Shown here: in pieces, positions 2,272-60,099 of the stretch | Layout: the number at the start of each line of letters is the position of its first letter | How positions within the stretch are numbered: the first letter of the stretch is position 1 | Source of the DNA: Trypanosoma brucei | Lineage: Eukaryota | Assembly: GCA_000002445.1 (NCBI GenBank) | Contig: CM000207.1 | Span: forward strand, 640,001-704,000 | Length of the DNA: 64,000 nucleotides | Reading direction: 5' to 3' | Position numbers and translations under genes: made by a program | The notes under the pieces: model-generated | What the model saw: only the letters and a program-made list of their open reading frames with translations | What the model was told of the DNA's origin: nothing | Databases searched by the model: none

Positions 2272-2330
2272 TTTTCCTCGTTTTTTTGTACAACTGCCTC
2301 TGATTATTGTTGTGAGTTTTTCTTCAATTA
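2272..2330 (+). promoter_or_regulatory. Polypyrimidine-rich tract upstream of the PPX1 ATG; candidate trans-splicing signal
   Basis: T/C-rich run (ttttttcctcgtttttttgtacaactgcctctgattattgttgtgagtttttcttc) followed by AG dinucleotides, 40-100 nt upstream of ATG 2371. Kinetoplastid trans-splice acceptor architecture is established knowledge; exact site not determinable by eye. Confidence 0.4.
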
Positions 2331-2370
2331 TATTTTGTCCTACGCTTTGGGCACTTTCCGGCCTTAAGAT

Positions 2371-5345: not shown

Positions 5346-5516
5346 ATGTCGCGCGGCAACCAACGGGAACTTGCTCGCGAAAAGAACTTGAAAAAGAAGG
5401 AGAAGACAAAGGGGCAACGGGACGACGGATTAACTTTCGCCCAACGAAAAGAAGCTGATGCCGAGCGGATGCGCAGAAAGCAAGCGGAGGCTGATGCGCG
5501 GAAGACTGGTTGTTGA
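5346..5516 (+). CDS. SERF/4F5-family small EDRK-rich protein, 56 aa (below the 60-aa ORF-track cutoff)
   Basis: Hand translation from ATG 5346: MSRGNQRELAREKNLKKKEKTKGQRDDGLTFAQRKEADAERMRRKQAEADARKTGC, stop at 5514-5516. N-terminus matches the SERF consensus M(T/S)RGNQR(E/D)LAR(Q/E)KN(L/M)KK. Confidence 0.65.
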   Translation: MSRGNQRELAREKNLKKKEKTKGQRDDGLTFAQRKEADAERMRRKQAEADARKTGC

Positions 5517-5943
5517 ATATGATTTGTTGCGCGGGGCTTCCCATAGGACCCATGAAACTTGTCGACCTATTTGCTAGATACCTGATGGTTTCCCTGTTTT
5601 CTGCCAGAACACAACATTCGTTGAGCCTTCAGTTGAACACCCAATGGTTTCCGGACTGCATGCCAAATACAAGAAACTGGGGGTTGCGGTATGCCGTGTC
5701 TCCCCTTTTTAAATATGAGTAATGAAGGACACGACTTGCATTAATAAAGGACACACTATCCTCCACGATTCTGAGAAGAGCAGTTCAAAAGGAGGGATTA
5801 ACCACAGGACCGCAGATGTTACTTGTTCCTCAATTTTTCAAATAACGTTCAACACTACTCGGCTAGTTGTTTTGCTATTCATTTTCTCCCCCCAATGATC
5901 TTTCATTTTTTCCATCTGGCATTACCTTCTGCGAGTGCAGATT

Positions 5944-6450
5944 ATGTCGTACTACGACAAGTCTGACAAAATAGGCTATGACGACACTGACAAAGAGCTT
6001 AACGAAGAGCTGGAGGAGATGCTCGCTCGAACACCCCCTCATATTCAACGACATTTGCAACATCGTATTCACGATGGCATACTGCAGCGTATGAAAGAGG
6101 ATACCGCGCGAAGGTGCTGGGAGTTCATCAAAAAGTATGAAACATGTGTCAATAGCGTCAAGCCATATGACTTAACGGACTGCCGTCCCCATAGGGACGC
6201 CCTCAATGATTGTGCCCACGAGGTGAACCGCGAACAAATCTATCAAAAGTATCGTATGATGTATCTCCGAGGTGAACTTCTCAGATTACATGAGAGCCGC
6301 CTTGGTCAAAAAATGGAGACCATGAAGGTCCGTGCACCCGATTCGATTAGGGGATGGAAGCCGGACTATGCACCGAAGTATGCGGAAATGATGTCAGATA
6401 TTGGACTAAATTTGGGGCCGGAGGCGGCGGACGAGCGAAAGCTCAGCTAA
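5944..6450 (+). CDS. Twin Cx9C (CHCH-domain) protein, probable mitochondrial intermembrane-space protein, 168 aa
   Basis: Track ORF starts at GTG 5935; first ATG is 5944. CWEFIKKYETC and CRPHRDALNDC each have exactly 9 residues between cysteines (twin Cx9C). Confidence 0.6.
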   Translation: MSYYDKSDKIGYDDTDKELNEELEEMLARTPPHIQRHLQHRIHDGILQRMKEDTARRCWEFIKKYETCVNSVKPYDLTDCRPHRDALNDCAHEVNREQIYQKYRMMYLRGELLRLHESRLGQKMETMKVRAPDSIRGWKPDYAPKYAEMMSDIGLNLGPEAADERKLS

Positions 6451-6614
6451 CAGGTGAAAAAGTGCGCTTCGCTTTCAAAGAAAAAACTTTTTTCCGGAGG
6501 AGTGGAGGGGTGACCGGCCTGCTGTCGGTTTCTATTTCTGTAACCAGGATTCCTTTTCTTTTTTTAAAAAAAAACACGACCTTCCACCATTGTGTTTGTA
6601 TTATAGAAGACTAC

Positions 6615-7835
6615 ATGTTGCATGCCGTTCGCCTACTCTCATGTTGGCGTCCCGCTGCCATTCAACACTTGCCCGACGTTGCCCCCCACGCACCGGTTCA
6701 GGAGGTCGAAAAGTCGCATGCTCGATATCGGCCGCTCTCTCTGAGGGCTAGACAGACTCTTTCGGAAAAATCTGATGACCTTCAGTATCACGTCGTGACT
6801 CAGGAATGGTTTGGGGAACGTGTTGACAGCTTTCTTACATGCCATTATCCCCAGTGGGACTACGAAACTATCAAAAGATTGGTGCAGCAGGGACACATAT
6901 ATAGGTATAGGAAGAACGGGAAAAAGAAATTTACTCGTCTCACAGACAGATTGGAGTTCGATGAACTGCTTGTCGTACCAACACGAGCCTTCTGGGAGAA
7001 GCAACTTGCTCCCCCCAGTGGTGTCCTAGAGGAGACTGACGGGCCGAAGTTTAAGTTGTCAGCTACTGCACGAGAAATGGCTCATAATATGGTGCTATTT
7101 AAAAACGAGCATGTTATAGTAATAAACAAGCCCCATGGTTTACCTATGATGCCGACAGACGACCCTCAGGAGATGAGTATAGCTGCGATGTTGCCAGCCT
7201 GGAAATTCACGAACGTTGCGAAGCCAGTTGTTTGTCATAACCTAGACAGGGAAACTAGTGGGTGCGTTGTGCTAGCTAGGACAAGAAATGCACATCGTAT
7301 GCTGGGTCGAATGTTTGTGAAGCGGGTGGTACCCAATAGTGTGTACTGGAGTTTCTGCGTTGGTAAACCAACGGTTAATTATGGTAGGGTGCGTATGCAC
7401 TTTGACATAACCAGGGGGAATAAAGGCGATATTATCGTTGCAAGGCCTTCGCCGACCAAGACGTCCAAAGTGGCTATCGCTGAGTTTGTTGTCAATGCAA
7501 GCGCCCTAGAGTTTGGTAGCTTTATTTCCTTTTATCCGCTAACAACCCGTCGCCACCAGGAACGAATTATGGCAGCACATGCCCTGCGCTGTCCGGTGTT
7601 GGGGGATGCTAAGTATGGAGGCGACGCGGCCTTTCCATCGTCGCTGTCGCTTTTTTGGGATCCTGAAAACAAGGGTTTGCCACTTCATCTACATCATCGC
7701 AAAATTCAATTACCCTACAAAAATACGGCGGGGGAGTTTATTTGTGTCACTGCCCCTCTTCCCACCCAAATGGAGAAGACATTTAAAAAACTTGGATGGC
7801 CATGTGAAGTGGACGACCCGCTGATACCGGGCTGA
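6615..7835 (+). CDS. RluA-family pseudouridine synthase, ~406 aa
   Basis: Track ORF 6354..7835 overlaps the upstream gene; first in-frame ATG after its stop is 6615 (MLHAVRLL...). Catalytic motif HNLDRETSGCVVLART (RluA HRLD...SG signature) plus a downstream KYGG-type region. Confidence 0.8.
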   Translation: MLHAVRLLSCWRPAAIQHLPDVAPHAPVQEVEKSHARYRPLSLRARQTLSEKSDDLQYHVVTQEWFGERVDSFLTCHYPQWDYETIKRLVQQGHIYRYRKNGKKKFTRLTDRLEFDELLVVPTRAFWEKQLAPPSGVLEETDGPKFKLSATAREMAHNMVLFKNEHVIVINKPHGLPMMPTDDPQEMSIAAMLPAWKFTNVAKPVVCHNLDRETSGCVVLARTRNAHRMLGRMFVKRVVPNSVYWSFCVGKPTVNYGRVRMHFDITRGNKGDIIVARPSPTKTSKVAIAEFVVNASALEFGSFISFYPLTTRRHQERIMAAHALRCPVLGDAKYGGDAAFPSSLSLFWDPENKGLPLHLHHRKIQLPYKNTAGEFICVTAPLPTQMEKTFKKLGWPCEVDDPLIPG

Positions 7836-8182
7836 TATCAATGAATCCCAACGCGCACCCTGTCATGAGGTAGCTTTGTCGTGTGTCTCTTCTAGTTTCT
7901 CTCCGGGTGTTGCTTGCGGGAGCGAGTGCCTCGCGTCGACCGGTTGTAAGACTAGGGTCGATGGACGGTACACGTTGGTGAAAGAACTGAACGGGTGTTG
8001 TTTGACCTTTGCTTTCCTCGCTCTTCCTCCGTCGCTGTTTATATACTTACTCGCTGCTAGAATGAAGATTTTCTTTTCGTGTTTTCACTTCTTTACTCCT
8101 TTTTGCGATGGGTCCACATGCTATATCTAAAAGCATCGGTTAAAATCTGATAGCGTGGGAACAAGTCATTGGCGTGCATGGA

Positions 8183-9253
8183 ATGAACCGAGCGGCTCGC
8201 ATTATTCCCCCACACCGGTACCGCACCGCAGACGGCGAGCAGTTTACGATCAGACATATCAGGAACCGCACCGCATATAACAGCGAGTGGGTAGAGGTCC
8301 GTGAGCGGCTTGTGAGTGGCGCCTCACTGTTACCACAAGTTTTGGATGTAGCGAGCGATTCGTCGTTGTCAGTAATTTTTATTGCTGTTGGAAGTGAGGA
8401 ATCTGCGGAGACCGGGATCATGGGCTATGTTGTTGTAAATATGAGCTTCATAGCATCAAAAACCGTCTCAGTTGCATGGATATCCGTTTTGAATCGCTTC
8501 CGTGGGAGACACGTGGGCCGTTCTCTGTTGCACCATGTAGATAGCTTCTGTCGGGCAAACATGATAAATCACATAGAGGCTATGCGGACGGATGGTTTGA
8601 CGAATCTGTTTAAAAAGTGTGGATTTCGTTTGTCAGCTTCTCCTGTCATATTCAAATCAAAGGCACAACGAAAAGACGTTCAGTTACCCAGCCAACCGCA
8701 AGTCCCCTATTGTATCACCAGCGGTGCCGTAACCCTCCGTTGCACAACTGCGGAAGACAGAAAAGGGTGGTCTTTATGTATTTTGGAAGCGTGCAGCTAC
8801 CTATCCGGCTGTACTGAACTAGTTGTAAATGCCTTTTCGGCCGATTTTCGTGTTTCTGCAGTGAACAGCGAAACTAAACGCATAATAGGGATTGTATCAA
8901 TTGACTCCACTGGATGGATCCCGCTCATTGCATGCCTCCAAGAGTATCGTGGCCAAGGTCTGGGCTCATTTATGATGTTTATTGCTATGGAATGGCTCAG
9001 GCGGCAAGGTGGCAGCGAGGTCACCTTGAGCCCATTAAATGCAAGCGTTGTCAACTTCTACAAGCGTTGGTCCTTTGTCGTGGACAAGAAGTCTGCAGGG
9101 AAGAGAAAGCGTTGCGACGATGGGATCCCTATCCTTGTAAGGAGGCTTAGCGAGGGCGAACGCTTTCTGCCGGATGGGTATGAACTGGAAGATTTCGTTC
9201 ATTTCGCTTCATCAAAGCAGAATGATACCCTCAGGGTGGCTGGGAGCGGCTGA
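8183..9253 (+). CDS. GNAT-family N-acetyltransferase with two tandem GNAT-like halves, ~356 aa
   Basis: First ATG 8183 (track start 8174 is GTG). C-terminal half has acetyl-CoA motif A, EYRGQGLGSFMMFIAMEWL; N-terminal half has a weaker RFRGRHVGRSLLHHV motif. Confidence 0.6.
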   Translation: MNRAARIIPPHRYRTADGEQFTIRHIRNRTAYNSEWVEVRERLVSGASLLPQVLDVASDSSLSVIFIAVGSEESAETGIMGYVVVNMSFIASKTVSVAWISVLNRFRGRHVGRSLLHHVDSFCRANMINHIEAMRTDGLTNLFKKCGFRLSASPVIFKSKAQRKDVQLPSQPQVPYCITSGAVTLRCTTAEDRKGWSLCILEACSYLSGCTELVVNAFSADFRVSAVNSETKRIIGIVSIDSTGWIPLIACLQEYRGQGLGSFMMFIAMEWLRRQGGSEVTLSPLNASVVNFYKRWSFVVDKKSAGKRKRCDDGIPILVRRLSEGERFLPDGYELEDFVHFASSKQNDTLRVAGSG

Positions 9254-9665
9254 GGTGGACAACAAGGAATTTGTCCACGCGGCGAAACTATCAACTCATA
9301 TAACATTAATTAACGCGGCACATGATGGTCGTTGTTCGAGGTGGGCCCCATGGTGTACTAGATATATGCTATGTTGCCACCGGATCCTGATCGCACCCTA
9401 GTGTTTACTTCCTCATCTTGTTTGTATTGTGCCTTTCGTACTTTTGTCTTTTCCACCTTCGGGCTGCTTAGCAACCTATTCATTGAAGTTTTTTCCCCTC
9501 TAGGGTTGTCGTCGTATCGATTGCACGGGGCGTGAAAAGTGAACCGCCCACGTATCGCTCGCATCACCTTCGAGTGGGTAGAAAGTACGAGTCCACACCG
9601 CGTAAGACGTGCTCGTGTGACCGAGCCAGGCAAAGCGGAGTAACTCAGTTCGAAGTAAGGGGAAA

Positions 9666-9989
9666 ATGTCGGTAGTGGATGTTTATAGCGTGGAACAGTT
9701 CAGAAACATAATGAGCGAAGACATTCTCACAGTGGCTTGGTTTACTGCCGTGTGGTGCGGTCCATGCAAAACTATCGAGAGACCTATGGAGAAGATTGCG
9801 TACGAATTTCCAACGGTGAAGTTTGCCAAAGTGGATGCTGACAACAATTCTGAAATAGTGTCCAAGTGCAGGGTGTTACAGCTCCCTACCTTCATTATCG
9901 CGAGGAGCGGAAAAATGCTTGGACATGTGATTGGAGCTAACCCTGGAATGCTGAGACAAAAATTAAGAGATATCATCAAAGACAACTAA
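9666..9989 (+). CDS. TRX: Thioredoxin, 107 aa
   Basis: ATG 9666; canonical WCGPCK active site (VWCGPCKTIERP) in a 107-aa thioredoxin fold. Confidence 0.85.
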   Translation: MSVVDVYSVEQFRNIMSEDILTVAWFTAVWCGPCKTIERPMEKIAYEFPTVKFAKVDADNNSEIVSKCRVLQLPTFIIARSGKMLGHVIGANPGMLRQKLRDIIKDN

Positions 9990-10215
9990 GAGTTCCGGAG
10001 AAAAGGGGCACAGTACAGCGAGTCATACCCCTTTTTTCACAGCACCACGGGGGGAAGTCAGTGGGGTATGGGAATAACAAATCAGGATGGTAAGTCCCAC
10101 TGGCATCTTTTTTTTTTTCTTAAAAGCTTCGGCTGTGCACTGGTGTATGGCGTTTTCTCAGAGTGTAGTAAAGGGAAAATGGAGCAGAATTTCACCGCGT
10201 TCCGGGGAGGGGAAC

Positions 10216-48600: not shown

Positions 48601-49745
48601 CGTGATTTGATGTGTACGCGTTTGCGGTGTGGACCTCAATCATGCGTCAGCAAACGTGCCCCGCCGGCGTTGGCAATATGTATTGGCTGCAACCCTCAGG
48701 TAGCATTCGCCAACTCACTCACCAACGTGAGTGTGCTTGTTTTTGTGTAACAAAAAGAGTATGTACATTTAGTTGAAGTTAGTAAACAGGAAGGGTGTGC
48801 GCGGAGTCTCATAGTGTAATTAGTAGTATGGCACACAAAAGCACTTTGGAAACGTGTGGGCGACGCACCCGTGTAAACAAGAAGTAACCGATTGCGGTTC
48901 CATGCGATGGCGGTAGGGTCGATATCATTATCAATACTATTTTTGTTTTTCGTTGTAGCTACGTCTATTCCCAATTTTCTGCTTCCCACCTTGTTTCCTC
49001 GCTGGTTTCTTTGCGCTTTGTGGTAGAGGGGAAAAGCTTCTCCCGGAGAATGGTTTTGCCACCCTTCCGCTATACGCTCACCTTACTACTTCCAGTTTCT
49101 TACTGTTATTGTGTGCGCACGTGCTCGGTACCTTTGTCCCCTTTTCCCCTGTGTATCTATCTTTAATCGGTGCACAGTTACGCCATCCCATCTTGTGGAA
49201 TTCCCTCCCCTTTGAATTAAATGCAAGATGACAGTTAGCCTTCCATTGCTCTGCTTGGTGACTGCTGCCTTTTCATACGGTGGAAGAGCTTCACCGACGA
49301 ATGAAGTTTTTCACCCCTTGGACTTACCCCTGGCCTTGTTGAAGGACTGCCAAGCACGTCCGTACGCCGTCAGGGCGTCGTCTGAAGCAGATTGCGTTAC
49401 CCGATAACAGTGAAGCTCCTGATCAACAGGGCTGCTGTGCACGGAGGGGAATGGCTATGCCGGATGATGTGGCACCTGTGCTTTAGTGTGGTGGCACTGC
49501 TCTTGCAGTTTCTGGAGCTCAGCCACTTGCGAGTTAAGAGCCAATGTCGCTAAAAAGGGGCAGGTGACAGTAGGGTGGTCGACGCTCAACTTGTTGATGG
49601 TTGTAGGAAACCAAAAGGGTGGCTTTGGCGGCCTAATGGAAGTCCGAAACGCTTCGATGGGACCCGAGTGAAATACGCATTGACAAGCGTCCAAGTTAGT
49701 GGGGAAGCCAAAACCGTCAACGAGGACATTGCACCCAACCCACCC

Positions 49746-51353
49746 ACCCCCCCCCCGCGCTCTCCCACACAACCACACGTGCACGCATTGGGTGTCGCTC
49801 GTTTCGGATAGCAGCGCCCCTCTGTGTTTGATGGCGCGCGCTCTCGGGTGTTTGGGCGTCCTGGACAGTCACGCGCATACAAAGGATATGCACAATCCCC
49901 GACATTCCCATTGCGTTCTGAGGCGTTTTTCCAACTCGTTCCTTGTCCAACCCTTTCTACAGATTTTTTTCCCCGTCGCATGAGCAACCCACGTTAATCG
50001 TTGGAACGATACCGCATCACTGCCCGGGCGTATCACTGGGCGCCAAACGTTTATCCACCACGCGAGGTATGAGCTGTTCCGACTAAACTTCACATTATGT
50101 GTGTGTGTGTAGGGGGCGACGACTCCTCATGATTTGCTCTATTCTGCACCAACCGCGTCTCTCATTCGGTTGATGCAGTCGCTCAGCCATCCCAGATATC
50201 ATCCGAACCGTTTCGTTGCGCCAGAAGAAAAACCAAGCGGGAAATTTCTCTTGTCTCCGCGCCGCCTCCATATCTTTCCTAGCAGAAGGGGTATGAGAGA
50301 AAGCGTTGATACCGTGCGTGACGGCCCTCAAACTGCTGCGTTAAAATTGAAGTATTCACCGCTGATGCCTTTTGAATCGACAACTATATCACGGTATTAG
50401 TGCCGCACGGAGGGTGTTCCGGTTGTAGACCCGCCCCCGTAGCCGGGTAATTAGTTTCAATAAAAATTAGAGCAATAGAAAACATAATGCACTTATAGGG
50501 GCATATTCCTAACGAGCTGCACCGATCCCTTCTCCATATAGGGCGAAGGACGTTACCTTTTATACGTGTTGGTTCCGCCTTTAAAGAAAAGAGGGACGAT
50601 GCGAATTTGTTGAACGTCTCTAACCCGGACCCCACCCTTTGCCTTGTATGCCGTTTCTTTTAGAGGCCTTTCAAGCACAATCTTCATTGCAGCCCTCCCT
50701 CCTCGGAAGTCACGTGGCAGCTTACCGATCCTTCTGCGTAACTCAGCCGTCTTTCTGCCTTATCAAATATGAAAGTTTCTCCACCGCTCGGCATATCCAA
50801 TTCAGCAGAACCTTCTGTTCAGGTTTGGTGGTGGATGGCAACGGACACCTCTATTTTTCTCTTCGCACGGCGCATCTTCCCTCAGCCCACTCGAGGGATA
50901 GGGCCGTGCTTGCAACCCCGAAAACGATCCACACTAAGCTTTCCTTTTGCGGTAAGTCTTCCCCACTTTGTTACACTAACACTTGGCAGCATCCAATTCG
51001 TTATGCATAGGGTAGTCCAGAAGGTCCGGCTTTTCTTATGACTTCACTGAATGTTTAATCGACGGCTTCCCATTTCAGGTAACATTCCACTCCCCTCTTG
51101 CAAACTACACCCCTAACGATGATCAGCTGAGCCAACTCAACCGCATCTTCCCCGCTCTCTCCACCCGTCACGCCTGTGATCATGTTGGTTACTTGCCGTC
51201 GTGACCCCACCGCATTCTTCCAAAAAAATGAGGGAAAATGTGGCGGTGCTCGATTCCCTGCATGATCGTTTCCCTGCCGCTCCGAGTCGGGGTGTACGCA
51301 GTGCTCGGGCTATTGAATCCCACACTGTCGAGAAAGGAGTTCTCAATCTGAGG
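49746..51353. repeat. Copy B (reverse complement) of the >=1.6 kb repeat at 1..1615; probably continues beyond 51353
   Basis: See copy A. Inner boundary at a C-run (49760..49769), complementary to the G-run ending copy A. Positions 51330..51353 are the reverse complement of window 1..24, so the repeat is only as long as the window allows on the left. Confidence 0.85.
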
Positions 51354-52429
51354 AGCGGGCGTGCTACACCTTTAAATTTCCTTTGAGGAAGCTTCGCTGT
51401 GGACACGAAAGTTTGACGGTTAAGCCCAGTGCTTTCGTTGTACATTTTTCTTTTACCTTGTTTTCAAATACCTTGACGCTCAGTGAGTATCGGGTTGCTG
51501 CCGCAAACAAATACTCTCTTTCCCTGTAAATTCCTCCGCGAAAAAAGGCTTTGTATGCTTCGAACCACTGGCAAGATGTTACTGAAGACGGGGCCTTAAT
51601 GAACGATGGTCAGCCCCCGGGTGCACCATTGTCAGGTTGGTCATGGGAAACTAATACTGGAAGTCCGGCATTCTTTTAATGCAACTGCTGTTCACCCACA
51701 GTTGTAATCATCGTAGTTGAACCGAACAGCAATCTCCGCGGAAACTCGCTTGATAGCGACTCTTCTCGATATCCAGTTGCTGCTGCCAATGCTCGCCGTC
51801 CTTTTGGGAGTGAACTGTTGACGGATACCGTTACGTAAGAGACAACTCCAAATACTTAAATTCGTGGGCGGCAGCATGTGATCCAGCGAATCCAAAGCAT
51901 GAGCTTGATGCACCAATGCGACTAGCACAAGCCGGCACTCCCCCAGCGCTTCGGGTTCCAAGCAGCTGCCGCAGGTGGCCGTTGTCTAAGGCTTTGGTTG
52001 TAGCCCATTTTCTTGCTCGCGTAGTTTGTTGTCTAAAAGGCAGTGGAGCCTTTGGCTGATAGTTCACTCCATCAACTTTCGCACCCGGTGGTGGTTGTTT
52101 CCGGCCAAAATTATGCTTTCTCAGTAGCTGGTGTGTTCACCATCAGAACTGGTATGACGATCCCACGTCCCTACTTTCCCCGAACTTTTCTACTCTGCAG
52201 ACACCGGCCGCCCAACTACCCTGGAGACCACAGCCCGCCAACCCCAACTGCGTCAGCCGCTCACAGTGTGTGCCGCCCTCTCCCGCCGGAAATCCTTTCA
52301 GCTCCTCCAAATACTGCAACCGTCCCGCTTGGTAGATGGGGATGTCCCCCGGCACTGGACACCTGAGTTTTCGGAACTTCACGAAGTGGTTGCGGGTTGA
52401 TAACATTGAGTAAGCAGGGGACGGTTACC

Positions 52430-55390
52430 AGCACACGCAGGTAGCTGCTTGAATGGGCAGAAACAAAGCAGTGACCGTTCTGCGCTCATGGCTCAGGCCG
52501 TCAGATTAGTAGACTGGCATATGATGGCGAAGGTGCATGCACCCAGACCGCTCAGAACTATGCCGATGCTTCGAGTGGATCAGGCCACCATCACGGATTG
52601 TGGACGAGCCGAGCACTTCGCTGACCTCTGCTCGATGCCGGAACTCTGACATCCTGACTCACACCCTCCAACGTCGACTAGGAAGAAAGCTAACGAATAC
52701 TAACTGACCGCGACGGCGGGGCCCAAGAGTGTCCCGAAACTGTCACCAAGCGACTCAGCAACCGGACCCGACTATGTGCACGACGAGGTACTGCAACAAC
52801 TCGGCAGAACAGCGCAGAATGTTGTTCTGAGGCTATTCAATGAGAGCCTACGAACGGGAGTCGTGCCGCCTGCATGGAAGACTGGTGTTATCATCCCCAT
52901 CCTGAAGGCCGGAAAAAAGGCGGAGGACCTCGATTCTTACAGGCCTGTGACGCTCACGAGCTGTCTCAGTAAAGTCATGGAGCGCATAATTGCCACGAGA
53001 CTTAGAGACACTGTTGAGTCCCAGCTGGCGCCGCAGCAATCAGGCTTTCGCCCCGGATGCTCAACGCTCGAACAACTCCTGCACGTCCGCGCTGCCCTCT
53101 GCCGTCCCACGCACCAATCTCGTACAGGTGCTGTATTCGTCGACCACGCTAAGGCATTCAATACAGTAGACCACGACAAAATTGCGAGGGAAATGCACAG
53201 AATGAAAGTATCACCCCACATTGTGAAGTGGTGTGTATCATTTCTGAGTAACCGAACTGGAAGAGTGAGATTCAAGGAGAAGCTTTCCAGAAGCAGAACA
53301 TTTGAGCGAGGAGTGCCACAAGGAACTGCCCTTGGCCCAATCATGTTCATTATTGTCATGAACTCGTTGAGCCAACGCCTTGCAGAAGTGCCGTTACTGC
53401 AGCACGGATTCTTTGCAGACGACCTGACGATACTTGCGAGGCACACAGAGAGGGATGTCATCAACCACACACTACAATGCGGCCTAAACGTGGCGTTACA
53501 GTGGTCAAAAGAGTACTTCATGTCTGTCAACGTAGCGAAAACAAAGTGCACACTCTTCGGGTGTATAGAGCGCCACCCCCTTACATTACAACTGGACGGC
53601 GAAAGAATAGGAGCTGACAGGACACCGAACCTTCTAGGAGTAACATTCCAGTGTCTGCAAGGGATGGCAACACATGCGGCCGAAACGAGACGCAAGATGG
53701 ACTTCCGACTACTGCAGATAGCAGCCATCTCAGCTTCTACATGGGGACCAAGACGACAAGTGTTGAGAGCTTTTTATCTAGCACTCGTACAGGCACACAC
53801 CATGTATGGCATTGAGGTATGGTACTGGGACGCTTCGGAACGAAGTCGCGACCTCCTTGCATCAGCACAACACAAAGCCAGTCGCATCACAGCCGGCATA
53901 CCGCATGGGACGCGCAAAGAGGACTCTCTGCTGGAAGCAAACCTCCTGCCGCTCAAGACGACCACTCTTGTGCGCAGCATGAAATTCATGCTGATGTGTG
54001 AGTCACGAGGCGGATGTTTGCGGCGTAGTGCTGAGGAAGTATACCGCAGCAAACACCCAGTCAGAGTCCTACATTCCCGCATCATGCGGTCCTACCCCCA
54101 CCTCCGCATTGAGCCACGCGAACACCCACTAGAGACATCGACGCTCCGCCACAGCTACCGACCGCTATTTCACACGCAGATAAAGCCTGTGTGCGCTGAT
54201 AACCCTGACGATATCAAAAAGGAAGCTTCCGAGAAATGGGCAGAAGGCGGTTCGTACAAGTGGGCGCGCACTATGAGGTGTGGGCCGGTGGGTTTGTGTT
54301 TGTTTGTGAGGAGTCTTTTGCAGCCGCGATATTAAACGCTGAAAAGAACTCATGTTTAGGACATGGAGGGGGAGAGGCTCGCTTGCGAACAGTTGCAGTA
54401 CGGTATCTCTCCCGCCTGAATTGCGCCCGTGGAAAGTGATAGAGATTTTCCCAAAGTGCAAGAGGACGCCGAGCAGACCGTCGATTTTTAGGGACCCTCC
54501 TTGTCCCTTTACCGTGCTAGAAAGAGACCCACTGATTATTATCAACACGCTCCTGCGAGAACTATGGCGGCTGAGCGCAAAAATGCGGGCGCAGGAGGGT
54601 GAGCATGGGGCTGCAGTTCGTATTTACCAACCGTGTCGTGACGCAGAATGGCGCGTGCGGCGAACTTTTGAACATCGATTACAATACGCCCACGCCGAGC
54701 GAGGAGTGGATTCCGGATATTGTGGTTTACGTGAAACGCCTGTTATTTTCTGAGGAGGGACATGCGGATGCGCCCCGGTGCTGGATCGCCGGAACGCAAC
54801 TCCTAAGAAAACTCGAGGGAGCGGTGACTCAAGAGGAAGAGACAGCGTTGTCGCGTTTCCGTGTTGGCGTTATCTCTTGGCATTATGGATGTTTGGTACC
54901 CGAAATAAACCCACAAGTGACTCCACAACGCCACAGGTGTGATCCACAGCTTCCCTTCAGACTATCCAATACTCCAGCCGCCAAATTGCCCACGGCTTCG
55001 AACCCATAAAGCATTTCGCACATGATTGGTCCTGTTAAGTACACTGAATGTGGCAGATTGTACCGGTGTCGGGTGAGCGGTTTTGCACACATGGTCAACA
55101 AGCGCAACTTTGTACGAACGGAAGGCCTCCAGAGGATAATATGCGGCGACGCCCCACAACTGGTGGATGCGCCTCTAAATTCCTCATTAACGGAAGTTTC
55201 ACTAACGACTGCAAACGCTTGACGACCCGCGACACGGAAAACGAAGGAAGTGAGGATGTTCCGTGCGACGTTTGTGAATTCCTACTCGCAGCTGGGGGCC
55301 GCCCGCCGCTCAGAAGGCAGCTGACACACGGCATAGGCGCTGGCAGCTGTGCGTGAAGAAGCGACGGGACGAGGACGAAGCACAAAGGGA
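52430..55390 (+). mobile_element. Degenerate non-LTR (ingi/L1Tc/DIRE-like) retrotransposon remnant; boundaries approximate
   Basis: 519-aa RT-domain ORF (52776..54335) flanked by frame-broken ORFs. Downstream fragments include a Cys/His zinc-finger-like piece (55022..55222: YTECGRLYRCRVSGFAHMVNKRNF), as in the C-terminal region of ingi/L1Tc ORFs. No intact full-length ORF; start/end and target-site duplications not resolved. Confidence 0.6.
52776..54335 (+). CDS. Reverse-transcriptase-domain ORF of the retroelement (N-terminally truncated, starts at GTG in track), 519 aa
   Basis: Non-LTR RT motifs: YRPVTLTSCLSKVMERIIATRL (RT domains 1-2), FVDHAKAFNTVDHDKIAREM (domain 3), GVPQGTALGPIMF (domain 4), GFFADDLTILARH (domain 5; F/YxDD box as FADD), WSKEYFMSVNVAKTK (domain 6/7). 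Confidence 0.75.
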   Translation: MHDEVLQQLGRTAQNVVLRLFNESLRTGVVPPAWKTGVIIPILKAGKKAEDLDSYRPVTLTSCLSKVMERIIATRLRDTVESQLAPQQSGFRPGCSTLEQLLHVRAALCRPTHQSRTGAVFVDHAKAFNTVDHDKIAREMHRMKVSPHIVKWCVSFLSNRTGRVRFKEKLSRSRTFERGVPQGTALGPIMFIIVMNSLSQRLAEVPLLQHGFFADDLTILARHTERDVINHTLQCGLNVALQWSKEYFMSVNVAKTKCTLFGCIERHPLTLQLDGERIGADRTPNLLGVTFQCLQGMATHAAETRRKMDFRLLQIAAISASTWGPRRQVLRAFYLALVQAHTMYGIEVWYWDASERSRDLLASAQHKASRITAGIPHGTRKEDSLLEANLLPLKTTTLVRSMKFMLMCESRGGCLRRSAEEVYRSKHPVRVLHSRIMRSYPHLRIEPREHPLETSTLRHSYRPLFHTQIKPVCADNPDDIKKEASEKWAEGGSYKWARTMRCGPVGLCLFVRSLLQPRY

Positions 55391-55988
55391 AGGTAACCGT
55401 GAGTCGGTCGACCGTGCTACGCGGCAGTGCGTTTGTGCTGTGAGTTTGCGGCGAGTTGTGTCCGACGCACTAGTTTCCCAGGACCTTGCGATCGTCCGTG
55501 GGAAATAGGAGAGGGTTGAAGTGTGTCCCTATGGGGAATGGTGGCGTCTGCTAGTTTTTGTCTTCCTTTTACTGCGTTATAGTGTCAGTCTGAGGTGGTG
55601 ACCATCCCCATCAGGCATCTGTTTGGTTACCGGTTGCACAGCCTTGGCACTAAGGGTGCTGCGGGGGTATTTCCATCTCTTTAATCTTACTTGTATGACT
55701 CGAGTCTTTGACTTCTTTCTTTTTGTCGTTTGATCTGTGATTGAATCTTTGCCGAGACAAAAGGTGCGTGTTCCAACGATCATCAACCACGGCGTTGCGC
55801 GGTGACTTGGTCAGTCGTTGTCCGGGAGGGGGGGGGGTGTCGGCGCGCGTGGTGTTGTGCTTTTGCACTTCTCCTTGCTGAGAGGACAAGACGTAGCTTT
55901 TGACCTATGTGCTCTGCACGTCAGTGGGTGGTTCTCTGATTTGACTGGGGGCATATTGGTGGTACTTCCCCTCATGAGGCGCTTCCGG

Positions 55989-56346
55989 AGAATATGAAGC
56001 ACCTATGGTTGTGAGATTGTTTAGTGGTAATAGTTATAATTTTCTTTTGTGTTCTTGTCACCGGTCAGTTCCGTTAGTGAGGAGTAGTTGCGCTCGTACA
56101 GACCCGTTGGTAATTGTTGTGAATTTGGTGCTCAGGGCTCCATGCGGCACTGGGGGCGAGGGCTCGTCATTCAGAGGATGTCGTATACTAAAGGGCAGGC
56201 AACGCTGTGCGAGATCACAATCGTTTTAGCGATTCTTGTTGGAAGTATTTATGGAGTCTTATGACACTGGGTATGGCTGGTATCATTCTGTGTTACCCTG
56301 TAGCCTACTGGTCGTTCATCATGGCCTACCTTGTTGCCGTAGGCAG
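55989..56346 (+). repeat. 358-bp direct repeat, copy 1 (partner 58826..59183)
   Basis: Sequence from agaatatgaagcacctatggttgtgagattg to gttgccgtaggcag matches the second copy. Identical 74-aa ORF translations at 56005..56229 and 58842..59066; identical 69/84-aa overlapping ORF starts at 56207 and 59044. Confidence 0.9.
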
Positions 56347-56886
56347 CACTATAAAACGTGATCAAAAGGTTGCTGCTGCAGCTGGTTGTTTTATGTGGAC
56401 GGAGTGTGCCGCATAGTTTGAATAGCAACGTTTTATATCGCTTCGTTCAGCTTACACTCTTATTTTTTTCGATGACTGAAGAACGGTCTATCGGGGTATC
56501 CACTTAGTAGTTCATATATGTCGTACTACGCATATATTCATTTTTAAAATAAAAAACTGCGTCTAATATCGTTGAATTCCATGTTCTCTTTTAGTTCGTT
56601 GACTATATCGGGGAGAGTTTCACTTGTGGTTCGGTGCATGTGTGCCCCCTTAATAATTAGTAGTGATTTTTAAAAAATATTGACTCTGTCTCACTCTTCT
56701 TCTCTCTCTGTATGTGACCCTTTAATGTGTTTCTTGTCCCTGCATTTCCGGGTAGTTTTCATCATAGTTATTTAAACTTTATATTTTCGTTTCATTAATC
56801 TAATCAGCTGAAAATTAAACCTTTTTTTTTTTTAAAAGGGGTGTAGACAAATCAACTGTGAATTTATTCATTTATTGGGGCAACCG

Positions 56887-57372
56887 ATGCCTACTCCTCG
56901 GGAAACTGTCGTTGCCTTTTTGACACAGGCATGCTGTGGGACCATCGTGGCGCTTCACCGCATGGGCGGTATGGAGGTGATGTTGTATAAAGAGCAACTT
57001 GTTGTTATGCTTACGAGGTACTTTAATAGCTGCTGGAATTCTCTCCTTAGCGGAGATGATCCGTATGTTGTTGAGTCGTTTAATATGATGAAACATGATA
57101 ATCCTGGGTGCGTTATGAGGTATCTCTTTTCCGTCGGGACGTCCGTACTTCCCGACGAACCCCCCCAGGAAATAGCTCGCTATTCTCCCGAAGACACTGA
57201 CGACCTTGAAGCAGCGCGTGTGACAATTTCTGAGACGCTGCAACAGCTTCTCGCTGAACGGATAGCCGTCGATCCATTTCAACATTCCTGTGAGGGTTTA
57301 TCATTGAGTGCGGAGCGGACGGCGTGGAGTGAAAAAGGTTGTCCACCGCAAAATTTCTTTGAAATTTCGTGA
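56887..57372 (+). CDS. Hypothetical protein (~161 aa) between the two direct repeats, weakly supported
   Basis: Track start 56875 is TTG; first ATG 56887 (MPTPRETVVAFLTQACCGTIVAL...). Preceded by a T13 polypyrimidine run at 56823..56836. No recognised domain. Confidence 0.3.
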   Translation: MPTPRETVVAFLTQACCGTIVALHRMGGMEVMLYKEQLVVMLTRYFNSCWNSLLSGDDPYVVESFNMMKHDNPGCVMRYLFSVGTSVLPDEPPQEIARYSPEDTDDLEAARVTISETLQQLLAERIAVDPFQHSCEGLSLSAERTAWSEKGCPPQNFFEIS

Positions 57373-57759
57373 TGACGGGATTTCTCATCGTCGTTTCCTT
57401 TTTGCTACACTTCCTTTTGTTGGCGCTCTCGTATTTGTTTTCTTTGGGGAGGGGGGGGGGATGGATGACAGGTAAAAACGTATGTCGTGACAGCGAAGTT
57501 TTTTTTTTATTAATTGTTGAAGTGTATATTTTTCCTCTTGCTTTTCTCCAATGTTTAAAGCTACTTTTTTTTTTTTACTATGTCTCTTCAACTGTTCCTC
57601 AGGGTGTGGCGTAGGAGACCACCGTATGCGGGCGTCGTTTGGTTCTATTACTGTAGCCGAGCTGATCGCTGCGGTATATAGTTTACTGTGTTGTCGGCAC
57701 TTTTTACTACATTCGATTGGTTTTATTTAGGTAGAATAGAGGTAAGTCGACCAATCTGT

Positions 57760-58809
57760 ATGTTTCCGTTTTACTCATGCGACCAGGGTAAAGGTGCACA
57801 CGAGGTGCAAAGTCCACCAGGTGATACCATAAGCTCGATCCGTTTCTCCCCTGCAGGATGTCCGCTGTTGCTTGTAGGCGCAACATCATGGGACAAAAGT
57901 TGTCGTGTATGGCAGGTTGATAATTCGTCCAGAAGCGCAGCCATTAGTTCCAAACCGTTAAGCCTTGCAGAAAGTGGCGCCCCAATTTTGGATATGTCGT
58001 TTTCGGAAGATGGCAGGGTGTTCTTTGGTGGGTGTGACAAGAGCGCAACGATGTGGAATCTAACGACTGGTCAAAAAACCGTTGTCGCATCCCACGACCT
58101 TCCGATTAGTTGCCTGTCCTACGTGTTGTCACCAACCGGAGGTGACATGTTAATAACAGGAAGTTGGGATGGTAAGTTACGATACTGGGACATGAAGCAG
58201 CCGCGACCTGTTAAGGAGGATTTACTTGGTGAGCCGATATTTGCACTTGATGCGCAAAGATCGTTTCCTATGGCCGCATGCGTCACCGGACGCAAAGTGC
58301 ACGTTTTTAACATGCAGTTTATGTCGAAGGTGATGGAACTGGACCCCCCCAAAATGATGAAGTTCAGTTTACGATGTGTTGCTTGTTCACCTCAGCATGA
58401 TGGGGTTGCCGTTGGGAGCTCGGAGGGGAGGGTATCGTTCATTCCTTTGAGACAAGAAAGTGGCTGCACATTTAAAGCTCATGTCGTTGAAGAGAACAAT
58501 GTTTTCTATATGCACCAAACGAATTTCTGCTCGATAGATTCGAAGACCGGACGAATGATAACTGGTGGTGGGGATGGTCGCATTGCCGTCTGGGATTATA
58601 AAAAGAGGTGCAACGTATGCTATGAAAATGATCCGAAGTTGCCAAACAGGAATAACTCGATTTCTGCCGGAGACATTAGTGCCGACTGCTCTTTGCTTGC
58701 GTACGCACGTAGCTATGATTGGGCAATGGGAAAGACGCGCGCGATTACGAACGAGCCTCATACAATACACATAAGATCTGCTAATCCTACACAGCTGAAA
58801 GCAAGATAG
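57760..58809 (+). CDS. RAE1: RAE1/Gle2 WD40 mRNA-export factor homologue, 349 aa
   Basis: Track start 57688 is GTG; first ATG 57760. Collinear with human RAE1: ...ISSIRFSPAGCPLLLVGATSWDKSCRVWQV (cf. IGCLSFSP...FLIAGSWANDVRCWEV), LITGSWDGKLRYWD (cf. VMTGSWDKTLKFWD), GSSEGRVSF, TGGGDGRIAVWD, LLAYARSYDWAMGK (cf. IFAYASSYDWSKG). Confidence 0.8.
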   Translation: MFPFYSCDQGKGAHEVQSPPGDTISSIRFSPAGCPLLLVGATSWDKSCRVWQVDNSSRSAAISSKPLSLAESGAPILDMSFSEDGRVFFGGCDKSATMWNLTTGQKTVVASHDLPISCLSYVLSPTGGDMLITGSWDGKLRYWDMKQPRPVKEDLLGEPIFALDAQRSFPMAACVTGRKVHVFNMQFMSKVMELDPPKMMKFSLRCVACSPQHDGVAVGSSEGRVSFIPLRQESGCTFKAHVVEENNVFYMHQTNFCSIDSKTGRMITGGGDGRIAVWDYKKRCNVCYENDPKLPNRNNSISAGDISADCSLLAYARSYDWAMGKTRAITNEPHTIHIRSANPTQLKAR

Positions 58810-58825
58810 TTATTCTATTTTTCGA

Positions 58826-59183
58826 AGAATATGAAGCACCTATGGTTGTGAGATTGTTTAGTGGTAATAGTTATAATTTTCTTTTGTGTTCTTGTCACCG
58901 GTCAGTTCCGTTAGTGAGGAGTAGTTGCGCTCGTACAGACCCGTTGGTAATTGTTGTGAATTTGGTGCTCAGGGCTCCATGCGGCACTGGGGGCGAGGGC
59001 TCGTCATTCAGAGGATGTCGTATACTAAAGGGCAGGCAACGCTGTGCGAGATCACAATCGTTTTAGCGATTCTTGTTGGAAGTATTTATGGAGTCTTATG
59101 ACACTGGGTATGGCTGGTATCATTCTGTGTTACCCTGTAGCCTACTGGTCGTTCATCATGGCCTACCTTGTTGCCGTAGGCAG
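58826..59183 (+). repeat. 358-bp direct repeat, copy 2
   Basis: See copy 1. The copies diverge immediately outside these limits (upstream gcttccgg vs atttttcga; downstream cactataaaac vs tactaaattt). Confidence 0.9.
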
Positions 59184-59436
59184 TACTAAATTTAAAAGAA
59201 TTCCTTCGGCTGATAATATACTGAATCTTTTTGCTGTTCAGTTTATTTTGCACTGTCTCTCATTTTGGTGCGGCGCGGCGTATGCTTCACTGTTATGAAT
59301 CATGTCTTTTCCTTTTTTTTTTTGCAATATTTTTCGACATCGTTTGTGCCGTTGTTGGGTACAGGTTTTAGGTGTTAATCCGTTGCTGAGTAAATTTGGT
59401 TCTTAAATTTCGATTACTACGACAAGTAGCTGAGCG

Positions 59437-60099
59437 ATGAGTGAGTCTAGTGCGACCAAAAAGCATGTATATGGATATGAACTTTACAGTAAAAATGTTC
59501 ACCAATATCCATCTATTACTGATGTTAAAACCGTAAAGGGTGCAATCGCAGGAAACATTCATGACTACCTCAATCATTTGGGTGCATTTGAAGGGAATGC
59601 GCGTCGAGAGCGTGGGGAGGTATTGGCGTATTCGCTTTTGGCTGGTGCCCTCTCTCTGGCCTGCGCGATATATTTCGCCAAAGACGTATTACTGCCTTAC
59701 AAGTTGCTTACATTATCTCTCATTGGGGTTACAGGTGCTGCCACCCTGTGTGCTTACGTTTGTGACTGCAGACAGAAATCGGACAATATTGCCTTCCTGG
59801 CCACGTGCTCAGCTTCTACCGAGGCGAAGGACTACCTTCGTACCTTAAAAGGGCATCGGGTTTGCATTCGCTTGGGTGAGGTACCCAACTCGTCAGCGCT
59901 TACCATGGAAGCGCAGGTGGTTGGGCCTCCTTGTTTCTTCGGCGCTCCAGAAGTGCACTCATCATCGTCGAAGGTGGTGCCATACGGACGTTACTTCACT
60001 AAAAGCGGGTACTTTTTCCCTCCTCCGCTCATGAATGACGTGGATAATCTTCTAAGCTCATTAAAGACCTCGACCTCAAAAAAGAAACGGCAATCCTAA
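59437..60099 (+). CDS. Hypothetical membrane protein, 220 aa
   Basis: ATG 59437. Two predicted TM helices (LAYSLLAGALSLACAIYFA; LLTLSLIGVTGAATLCAYV); C-terminal KKKRQS. No recognised domain. Confidence 0.45.
   Translation: MSESSATKKHVYGYELYSKNVHQYPSITDVKTVKGAIAGNIHDYLNHLGAFEGNARRERGEVLAYSLLAGALSLACAIYFAKDVLLPYKLLTLSLIGVTGAATLCAYVCDCRQKSDNIAFLATCSASTEAKDYLRTLKGHRVCIRLGEVPNSSALTMEAQVVGPPCFFGAPEVHSSSSKVVPYGRYFTKSGYFFPPPLMNDVDNLLSSLKTSTSKKKRQS

What the first reader, a model, noticed from the sequence alone, without database searches (positions are those of the whole stretch)
55989..59183. Two essentially identical 358-bp direct repeats flank the segment carrying RAE1 and one small ORF
The copies 55989..56346 and 58826..59183 show no mismatches over 358 bp by eye, with sharp divergence outside. 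They bracket 2.48 kb containing a 161-aa ORF and the RAE1/Gle2 gene. Perfect identity implies recent duplication or ongoing gene conversion, and the arrangement allows recombinational excision or amplification of the RAE1 unit. The repeats contain a 74-aa ORF starting at ATG (MVVRLFSG...) in both copies, with no recognisable domain. The first repeat begins right after the retroelement remnant, so the arrangement may be a by-product of retroelement-associated rearrangement.
Basis: seen in the sequence. Interest (0 to 1): 0.5.

Follow-up and report, generated by a model that had tools for sequence, protein, structure and literature searches.

The report
Duplicated RAE1 3'UTR flanking two genes
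Two identical 358-bp stretches bracket the mRNA-export gene GLE2/RAE1 and a small neighbouring gene in Trypanosoma brucei; they are an ordinary low-copy intergenic duplication, most likely left by a tandem duplication of the two-gene unit and kept identical by gene conversion.

Summary
Window 55989-56346 and 58826-59183 are identical over 358 bp, with sharp boundaries, and are the only long direct repeat in the 64 kb. The window is T. brucei TREU927 chromosome 9 (GLE2/RAE1 = Tb927.9.3760). Copy B starts 17 nt after the RAE1 stop codon and lies in contigs that carry the RAE1 coding sequence, so it is the proximal RAE1 3'UTR. Copy A lies about 900 nt upstream of the 161-aa gene.

The same two-copy layout occurs in T. 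b. gambiense and two T. equiperdum assemblies, so it is neither an artefact nor recent. Three SNPs inside the repeat differ between strains but match in both copies of every genome. That shows concerted evolution.

T. vivax and T. melophagium have the same gene order without the repeat. A T. congolense contig reads RAE1-spacer-ORF161-RAE1, about 2.8 kb per unit, which points to a tandem array of the unit. The best reading is a one-unit relic or seed of that array.

There is no RNA family, unusual fold, protein domain or mobile-element signature. The retroelement link is loose, with 1.4-1.75 kb of unassigned sequence between. Such repeat pairs are already catalogued in T. brucei. Interest is low.

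The parts
55989..56346 (+). Repeat R, copy A (exact core; relaxed limits 55983-56351). An orphan copy of the RAE1 3'UTR segment, about 540-900 nt upstream of the ORF161 start codon.
   Evidence: Conserved at the same place in L001, L002 and L003.
58826..59183 (+). Repeat R, copy B (relaxed limits 58820-59188). It begins 17 nt after the RAE1 stop codon and forms the proximal part of the RAE1/GLE2 3'UTR.
   Evidence: Six transcript-like contigs run uninterrupted from the RAE1 CDS through R.
56352..56886 (+). 'A-right' spacer between copy A and ORF161. It holds a possible poly(A) site near 56656 and polypyrimidine tracts at 56694-56709 and 56820-56833, each followed by an AG (candidate ORF161 trans-splice acceptors). 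Under the tandem model, R plus A-right is the inter-unit spacer.
   Evidence: (L004 ends at 56656 plus AA; polyY/AG scan).
56887..57372 (+). 161-aa conserved hypothetical gene (EAN76462.1). It is found only in trypanosomes: 65% identity in T. congolense, 53% in T. melophagium, 27% in T. vivax. No Pfam domain.
57760..58809 (+). GLE2/RAE1 (Tb927.9.3760), a 349-aa WD40 poly(A)-export factor. The splice acceptor AG lies at 57601-57602.
   Evidence: Gene ID from bioRxiv 10.1101/2022.03.05.483099. Contigs L007 and L008 start at 57602.
59189..59436 (+). 'B-right': unique sequence between copy B and the 220-aa gene. A polyY tract at 59305-59323 with an AG at 59363 is the likely acceptor of the next gene. 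The RAE1 poly(A) site is expected close to the right edge of R.
   Evidence: The position of the poly(A) site is inferred, not measured.
56261..56416 (+). 51-aa ORF that starts inside copy A and ends in A-right. TREU927 annotates it as 'hypothetical protein, unlikely'. Its copy-B counterpart (59098-59298) is 66 aa with a different C-terminus. Probably not a gene.
56005..56229 (+). 74-aa ORF wholly inside R (second copy at 58842-59066). No domain, never called as a gene, and one of many ORFs of similar size in the region.
52338..54555 (+). Degenerate ingi/L1Tc-like RT remnant upstream of copy A. 1.4 kb of unassigned sequence separates it from R.

Best explanation
R is a two-member, non-coding direct repeat, not a gene, RNA gene or mobile element. 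Copy B is the first ~360 nt of the GLE2/RAE1 3'UTR. Copy A is a paralogous copy of that UTR segment stranded upstream of ORF161. The layout R - A-right - ORF161 - RAE1 - R amounts to 1.13 copies of a 2837-bp unit. The most likely origin is a tandem duplication of the ORF161-RAE1 unit in the common ancestor of T. brucei and T. congolense. T. congolense still appears to carry the unit in tandem. T. brucei retains one full unit plus the 3'UTR end of an upstream unit, whose remainder was lost at the rearranged, retroelement-littered strand-switch region. The two copies have since been kept identical by intrachromosomal gene conversion or unequal sister-chromatid exchange. The pair remains a substrate for homologous recombination that can expand the unit. 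Deletion would remove RAE1 and ORF161, and would presumably be selected against if RAE1 is essential, as is assumed here but not tested. Shown: the repeat, its conservation across Trypanozoon, concerted evolution, copy B within RAE1-carrying contigs, absence from T. vivax and T. melophagium, and the RAE1-ORF161-RAE1 contig in T. congolense. Inferred: a shared tandem-duplication origin, loss of the upstream unit, and present-day recombination activity.
For: The exact 358-bp repeat has sharp edges. Identical architecture occurs in DAL972 (spacing 2838), T. b. equiperdum GCA_003543875.1 (spacing 2834) and a T. equiperdum OVI contig that equals one unit bounded by R. SNPs at 55994/58831, 56004/58841 and 56018/58855 read A,T,T in both copies of TREU927 and OVI. 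They read T,A,G in both copies of DAL972 and GCA_003543875.1 and in the single R of each of the six Logan contigs. Only 0-1 private differences separate the copies within a genome, while flanking non-coding DNA differs 1.5-2% between strains. ORF161-RAE1-220aa-MPC synteny holds in T. melophagium and T. vivax with no flanking repeat, so the bracketed unit sits in its ancestral place and was not inserted. T. congolense contig L013 reads RAE1(aa~23-end) - 846 nt - ORF162 - 425 nt - RAE1(aa1-13). Its unit length of about 2.8 kb compares with 2837 bp in T. brucei, and its 846-nt spacer compares with about 920 nt for 17 nt + R + A-right. Jackson 2007 reports that terminal flanks of T. brucei tandem arrays are identical to the internal intergenic spacer but curtailed, and that gene conversion often affects UTRs (PMC1855330). 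Ubeda 2014 counted 773 intergenic direct or inverted repeats in T. brucei and confirmed rearrangements at selected ones by PCR (PMC4028189).
Against: No trace of a second RAE1 or ORF161 survives upstream of copy A. The upstream unit must therefore have been removed cleanly, with a breakpoint only 11-17 nt past the stop codon. Non-coding DNA of T. brucei and T. congolense is unalignable even for the orthologous ORF161-RAE1 spacer, so homology of the two duplications cannot be demonstrated and they could be independent. The T. congolense evidence is a single 2.8-kb draft contig. The 13-codon 'RAE1 start' at its end rests on position, an open frame and an MF..Y match only. All three shared SNPs lie within 25 nt of one another near the left edge, so a single short conversion event would explain them.
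Confidence: 0.6

Rival explanations
1. Copy A is a patch copied from the RAE1 3'UTR without any duplication of the genes. One route is reverse transcription of the 3' end of RAE1 mRNA, as a 5'-truncated or template-switched retrocopy made by ingi/DIRE machinery. The other is templated DNA synthesis during repair of a break in the retroelement-rich strand-switch region.
For: Copy A lies downstream of a same-strand RT remnant in a region that has been rearranged. The left edge of R is just past the stop codon, and its right edge falls about 115-120 nt upstream of the next gene's polypyrimidine tract, where trypanosome poly(A) sites usually lie. R therefore approximates the mature 3'UTR (inference). 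No remnant of a second coding copy exists.
Against: There is no poly(A) tail at the right edge of copy A: the sequence is TAAAACGTGATCAAAAGG, and the nearest A-run of at least 6 is at 56551. No target-site duplication was searched for at copy A; the only word search, anchored at the upstream element boundary near 49731, found nothing. 1.4-1.75 kb of sequence not recognisable as retroelement lies between the RT remnant and R. This model does not explain the RAE1-ORF162-RAE1 arrangement in T. congolense.
Confidence: 0.2
2. The identity is maintained by selection because R carries a function needed at both places. Candidates are a cis-regulatory or RNA-processing module, a small RNA, or one of the small ORFs (74 aa, or 51/66 aa).
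For: R is transcribed as part of the contigs carrying RAE1. The 51-aa ORF has a hydrophobic segment and is annotated in TREU927.
Against: R diverges between strains at about 0.8-1.1%, close to neighbouring non-coding DNA at 1.5-2% and well above the coding regions at 0-0.45%. No Rfam match reaches E<=1. The predicted fold is no more stable than shuffled sequence (z = +1.3). No Pfam domain is found. The 74-aa ORF was never called as a gene, and the 51-aa ORF is labelled 'unlikely'. The 51- and 66-aa versions have unrelated C-termini. The SNP at 56018 is non-synonymous in the 74-aa ORF, as read from the sequence.
Confidence: 0.1
3. Assembly artefact. Either a spurious duplication was created, or a longer tandem array was collapsed to one unit in the reference.
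For: Repeats longer than read length are classic sources of error. The T. equiperdum OVI and T. congolense contigs break at or inside the unit. Five transcript-like contigs show the RAE1-R-A-right junction expected of a second unit.
Against: Four independent assemblies give the same one-unit, two-repeat structure with the flanks intact. From my own knowledge, not tested here, TREU927 was finished clone by clone and GCA_003543875.1 is a long-read assembly. The junction contigs can also be explained by an assembler clipping a short B-right branch (inference).
Confidence: 0.07

Closest known systems
Low-copy intergenic repeated sequences (Repeat Alignment Groups) of trypanosomatids that mediate gene rearrangement or amplification (Ubeda et al. 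2014, PMC4028189)
   Same: R is a non-coding repeat longer than 200 bp with more than 85% identity. It has two members on one chromosome, in direct orientation, flanking genes. That paper counted 773 such direct or inverted repeats in T. brucei and confirmed rearrangements at selected pairs by PCR.
   Different: No rearrangement product has been demonstrated for this pair. R is not SIDER- or retroposon-derived as far as tested. In T. brucei no stable amplification from such repeats has been described. The bracketed RAE1 is presumably essential (assumed, not tested), which would bar the deletion outcome.
T. brucei tandem gene arrays evolving in concert (Jackson 2007, PMC1855330)
   Same: The unit structure includes an inter-unit spacer, and the terminal flank is identical to that spacer but curtailed. 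Gene conversion acts on UTRs, and copies are more alike within a genome than between strains.
   Different: Only one copy of each coding sequence exists in T. brucei. This is at most a one-unit relic or seed of an array. The multi-copy state is suggested only for T. congolense.
Retroelement-associated synteny breaks and strand-switch regions in trypanosomes (DIRE/ingi at strand-switch regions, e.g. PMC1868937)
   Same: Copy A lies in a former divergent strand-switch region that contains degenerate RT remnants. That region borders an inversion flanked by 98-99% identical inverted repeats.
   Different: R itself has no similarity to the retroelement remnants or to other copies of them. It lacks a poly(A) tail; target-site duplications were not searched for at copy A.

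Membership tests
Trypanosomatid intergenic repeat pairs (RAG-type, Ubeda 2014) | Non-coding repeat of at least 200 bp with at least 85% identity, both members on the same chromosome | tested here: met
   358 bp exact, or 369 bp at 99%. Both copies lie outside conserved coding sequences.
Trypanosomatid intergenic repeat pairs (RAG-type, Ubeda 2014) | Direct (or inverted) orientation bracketing one or more genes | tested here: met
   Direct orientation, 2479 bp between the copies, containing ORF161 and RAE1.
Trypanosomatid intergenic repeat pairs (RAG-type, Ubeda 2014) | A detectable recombination junction (circle or tandem junction, or deletion) | tested here: inconclusive
   Contigs L004, L005, L007, L008 and L009 join RAE1-R-A-right, while L006 joins RAE1-R-B-right. 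The contigs look RNA-derived: their starts fall between the splice-acceptor AG and the RAE1 start codon (57602-57700), two of them at the AG itself. They could be assembly chimeras through the identical repeat.
Tandem gene array (Jackson 2007) | Two or more tandem copies of the coding sequence | tested here: not met
   tblastn finds a single RAE1 and a single ORF161 in the window, with no remnant upstream of copy A. The same holds in L001 and L002.
Tandem gene array (Jackson 2007) | Concerted evolution of the repeated segments | tested here: met
   Three strain-specific SNPs are shared by both copies in four genomes, with 0-1 differences within a genome.
Tandem gene array (Jackson 2007) | A tandem arrangement in a related species | tested here: inconclusive
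   T. congolense contig L013 reads RAE1-ORF162-RAE1(start). It is a single draft contig, and no long-read assembly was available.
LTR-type or other mobile element bounded by direct repeats | The internal region encodes element functions and is absent from the orthologous site in relatives | tested here: not met
   The internal genes are ORF161 and RAE1. They occur in the same order and place in T. melophagium and T. vivax, which lack the repeat.
LINE-mediated processed retrocopy of an mRNA 3' end | A poly(A) tail at the 3' end of the copy | tested here: not met
   The right flank of copy A is TAAAACGTGATCAAAAGG, and no A-run of at least 6 occurs before 56551.
LINE-mediated processed retrocopy of an mRNA 3' end | Target-site duplication around the insert, and a right edge that coincides with the mapped poly(A) site | not testable with these tools
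   The 5' end of any such insert is undefined. No poly(A)-site data for Tb927.9.3760 were accessible.
Structured non-coding RNA gene (e.g. a snoRNA cluster repeat) | A match to a known RNA family, or a fold more stable than expected | tested here: not met
   No Rfam match at E<=1 over 55400-59500. MFE z-score is +1.29.

The most novel reading that the evidence does not exclude
The R pair may be an active recombination substrate in living T. brucei populations. In that case the 2.84-kb ORF161-GLE2/RAE1 unit would vary in copy number, as tandem repeats or transient circles, between strains or cells. The RAE1-R-A-right junction in five of six transcript-like assemblies would reflect real extra units whose RAE1 mRNA carries a different, longer 3'UTR. 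This would be a Leishmania-style, repeat-driven dosage mechanism acting on a core mRNA-export factor in African trypanosomes, shared with T. congolense.
Probability: 0.12. Interest if true: 0.5.

Novelty: new member of a known kind. Interest (0 to 1): 0.2.

Why it matters
The finding mainly serves as a clean, small example of concerted evolution between two non-coding repeats 2.8 kb apart in T. brucei. It also marks a former tandem duplication at a rearranged strand-switch region. In practice, the identical copies can mislead short-read and RNA-seq assembly: chimeric RAE1 3'UTRs were seen. They also affect UTR annotation, primer or tagging design, and knock-out constructs for Tb927.9.3760. If the pair still recombines, it would add a copy-number-variable locus involving an mRNA-export factor. 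The phenomenon itself, intergenic repeat pairs in T. brucei that can rearrange, is already published.

Tried and rejected
- **RNA gene.** An Rfam scan of 55400-59500 at E<=1 found nothing. Folding R gave no excess stability.
- **Protein-coding content.** Pfam found nothing for the 74-, 69- and 84-aa ORFs, ORF161, or the ORFs between the RT remnant and R.
- **Cross-species non-coding homology.** BLAST and Smith-Waterman with shuffles compared R, A-right, B-right and A-left against T. congolense, T. vivax and T. melophagium. There was no signal, even for the orthologous ORF161-RAE1 spacer, so the ancestral copy cannot be identified this way.
- **Decayed second unit.** A search for a degraded RAE1 or ORF161 upstream of copy A found nothing.
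- **Retroelement ends.** A target-site-duplication word search anchored at the element's upstream (5') boundary near 49731, plus a poly(A)-run scan of 54000-57000, found nothing. Other T. brucei copies of the element share only 52755-54239, so the 3' end could not be defined.
- **Transcripts of copy A.** Look-ups of the 51-aa and 66-aa ORFs returned only contigs already in hand and no A-left-R-A-right contig.
- **Data that could not be retrieved.** The look-up of the 220-aa protein was not on record. The second homology search found only the T. congolense draft contig. Literature searches for the run and assembly accessions found nothing. The supplement of PMC9380746 is not held.
- **Readings rejected.** LTR-like element or insertion of the unit is rejected by synteny in species without the repeat. 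Spurious duplication is rejected by four assemblies.
Full report
**Observation.** The reported repeat is real and the coordinates are exact. The longest exact run is 55989-56346 = 58826-59183 (358 bp, offset 2837). With edge mismatches allowed it extends to 55983-56351 and 58820-59188, which is 369 nt with mismatches at 55985, 55988 and 56347. Beyond those limits the flanks are unrelated. No other copy exists on either strand of the window, and this is the only direct-repeat family of at least 60 nt in the 64 kb. The 2479 bp between the copies hold a 161-aa ORF (56887-57372) and RAE1 (57760-58809).

**Identity of the locus.** RAE1 is 100% identical to the Trypanozoon 'poly(A) export protein'. 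The 220-aa neighbour is an exact match only to T. brucei brucei TREU927 EAN76464.1. The gene is GLE2, Tb927.9.3760 (bioRxiv 10.1101/2022.03.05.483099). The downstream genes are a 220-aa protein, which UniRef names signal peptidase 25-kDa subunit, and the mitochondrial pyruvate carrier.

**What the copies are.** Copy B begins 17 nt after the RAE1 stop codon. Six short public contigs (Logan, ERR7929156-64) carry the complete RAE1 CDS. Their 5' ends fall between the splice-acceptor AG at 57601-57602 and the RAE1 start codon (57602-57700), two of them exactly at that AG. All six run uninterrupted through R. They behave like RNA-seq assemblies, so I infer that copy B is the proximal RAE1 3'UTR. Copy A lies 540-900 nt upstream of the ORF161 start codon.

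**R has no features of its own.** No Rfam family matches at E<=1. The predicted fold is no better than shuffled sequence (z = +1.3). No Pfam domain is found in the 74-aa ORF or in the ORFs that cross the right boundary. The 74-aa ORF is absent from a 15-billion-protein collection. The 51-aa ORF is annotated in TREU927 as 'hypothetical protein, unlikely'.

**Not an artefact, and not recent.** The same two-copy structure with the same boundaries is present in four assemblies:
- TREU927 (the window).
- T. b. gambiense DAL972 (L001, spacing 2838).
- T. b. equiperdum GCA_003543875.1 (L002, spacing 2834).
- T. equiperdum OVI, where a 2.8-kb contig equals exactly one unit bounded by R.

**Concerted evolution.** Three sites inside R (55994/58831, 56004/58841, 56018/58855) read A,T,T in both copies of TREU927 and OVI. 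They read T,A,G in both copies of DAL972 and GCA_003543875.1, and in the single R carried by each of the six transcript-like contigs. Within a genome the copies differ at 0-1 positions: TREU927 copy A has a private C at 56347, and GCA_003543875.1 copy B has a private C at 58966. Flanking non-coding DNA differs 1.5-2% between the same strains. Between strains R diverges at 0.8-1.1%, like neutral DNA and unlike the adjacent coding regions at 0-0.45%. The identity therefore reflects homogenisation rather than purifying selection. All three shared SNPs lie within 25 nt of one another, so a single short conversion tract would be enough.

**Comparative context.** T. melophagium (L012) and T. vivax (L010, L011) keep the order ORF161-RAE1-220aa-MPC and have no repeat flanking the unit. 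The bracketed segment is therefore in its ancestral position. This excludes insertion of the unit, an LTR-like element and integration of a circle. In both outgroups the genes just upstream are on the opposite strand, so ORF161 opens a transcription unit at a divergent strand-switch region.

**Evidence from T. congolense.** The only available contig (L013, 2780 bp) reads as follows:
- RAE1 from about residue 23 to the stop codon.
- An 846-nt spacer.
- The ORF161 orthologue (65% identity).
- A further 425 nt.
- An ATG opening a 13-codon frame (MFSGYLRAPCQNK), at the position and with the MF..Y start expected for RAE1.

This is the signature of a collapsed tandem array with a unit of about 2.8 kb, against 2837 bp in T. 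brucei. Its RAE1-to-ORF161 spacer of 846 nt is close to the roughly 920 nt obtained by joining 17 nt + R + A-right.

**Best explanation.** The T. brucei layout is 1.13 copies of a 2.84-kb unit. I read it as the one-unit state of a tandem duplication of ORF161-RAE1, in which R + A-right is the inter-unit spacer and the terminal R is the curtailed spacer after the last unit. Jackson (PMC1855330) describes exactly this for T. brucei arrays: terminal flanks identical to the internal spacer but curtailed, and frequent gene conversion in UTRs. The upstream unit would have been lost in the rearranged strand-switch region.

**Weaknesses of that explanation.** No RAE1 or ORF161 remnant survives upstream of copy A. 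Non-coding DNA of T. brucei and T. congolense is unalignable even for orthologous spacers, so a shared origin cannot be proven. The T. congolense evidence is a single draft contig. I give the full explanation 0.6.

**Rival explanations.**
- A patch copied from the RAE1 3'UTR, by reverse transcription or by templated break repair, without gene duplication. In its favour, R roughly equals the expected mature 3'UTR: the next polypyrimidine tract begins about 117 nt after its right edge, and an RT remnant lies upstream on the same strand. Against it, copy A has no poly(A) tail, 1.4-1.75 kb of unassigned sequence lies between the remnant and R, and the model leaves the T. congolense arrangement unexplained. 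No target-site duplication was searched for at copy A itself. Confidence 0.2.
- A functional element or small gene kept identical by selection. Confidence 0.1.
- Collapse of a longer array in the assemblies. Confidence 0.07.

**An ambiguous hint of recombination.** Five of the six transcript-like contigs continue from RAE1 through R into A-right. One of them ends at 56656 followed by AA, a possible poly(A) site. Only L006 continues into B-right. RAE1-R-A-right is the junction expected of a second tandem unit or a circle. It is equally what a de Bruijn assembler would produce if the B-right branch is a short dead end that gets clipped (inference). I could not resolve this, because look-ups aimed at copy-A transcripts returned only the same contigs.

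**Relation to the retroelement.** Homology to other T. brucei copies of the element covers only 52755-54239 at 93%. Protein-level RT similarity covers about 52338-54555. R starts at 55989, so 'right after the retroelement remnant' overstates the adjacency. Copy A does sit in a retroelement-rich, rearranged region, described under 'Noticed in passing'.

**Comparison with known systems.** The pair meets the published criteria for trypanosomatid intergenic repeat pairs: at least 200 bp, at least 85% identity and the same chromosome. Ubeda et al. counted 773 such direct or inverted repeats in T. brucei, confirmed rearrangements at selected ones by PCR, and noted that stable amplification has not been described in this species (PMC4028189). 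The pair is not a tandem gene array in the strict sense, because the coding sequence is single-copy. It is not a mobile element, and it lacks the poly(A) hallmark of a retrocopy.

**Verdict.** This is a new, well-documented member of a known kind, and its interest is low.

**Noticed in passing.** The window holds a 48-kb inversion relative to T. melophagium, bounded by 98-99% identical inverted repeats at 1-1625 and 49731-51353.

Noticed in passing
window 1-1625 and 49731-51353 (segment 1626-49730): Inverted repeats 98-99% complementary and at least 1.6 kb long (the left arm is cut by the window edge) bracket 48 kb. In T. melophagium the orthologues of the genes at 2371-9199 (DHH phosphoesterase, a 168-aa protein, pseudouridine synthase, acetyltransferase) lie on the opposite strand, directly adjacent to ORF161 across a divergent strand-switch region. 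In T. brucei they are on the + strand next to the far arm. The whole segment therefore appears inverted in T. brucei, turning a divergent strand-switch into a head-to-tail junction. T. vivax also has minus-strand genes upstream of RAE1, though they were not matched to the window, so the divergent layout is probably ancestral.
   Followed up: partly
window 52755-54239; L015 7399-8885, 12631-13256 and 15674-17162; L016 8043-9531: The RT remnant is 93% identical to copies on another chromosome (CM010677.1). Two full-length matches have exactly the same 1.49-kb limits; a third, partial match of 628 bp covers 53607-54232. Those copies sit as an opposed pair about 8 kb apart. The shared unit looks like a discrete 1.5-kb fragment rather than a whole ingi element. 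Weak minus-strand RT similarity also occurs at 51064-52078.
   Followed up: partly
L013 (T. congolense IL3000 CAEQ01002284.1) 1-2780: The contig is a circular permutation of an ORF162-RAE1 unit: it starts at RAE1 codon ~23 and ends at RAE1 codon 13. This suggests a collapsed tandem array left unplaced in the draft assembly.
   Followed up: yes
L004, L005, L007, L008, L009 versus L006 (Logan ERR7929156-64): Transcript-like contigs join the RAE1 CDS and R to the flank of the other repeat copy (A-right) in five samples, and to the genomic downstream flank in one. L005 ends in 16 nt (CGCTGCCAGAGGGTAC) that do not match the locus.
   Followed up: partly
window 56261-56416 and 59098-59298: A small ORF with a hydrophobic N-terminal segment (MTLGMAGIILCYPVAYWSFIMAYLVAVGS) starts inside R and runs out of it. 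It gives 51-aa and 66-aa versions with unrelated tails. The 51-aa version is a TREU927 gene model labelled 'hypothetical protein, unlikely'.
   Followed up: partly
window 1610-1625, 49742-49756 and 55826-55836: Homopolymer G or C runs (G16, C10, G10) sit at the inner boundaries of the inverted-repeat arms and again about 150 nt upstream of copy A. Their significance is unknown.
   Followed up: no
L010 (T. vivax) 742-10001: About 9 kb upstream of T. vivax RAE1 has no called gene apart from a weak ORF161 homologue (27% identity at 9185-9559) and a short minus-strand RT remnant at 2756-2974. The strand-switch region upstream of this gene pair therefore holds retroelement debris in T. vivax too.
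   Followed up: no
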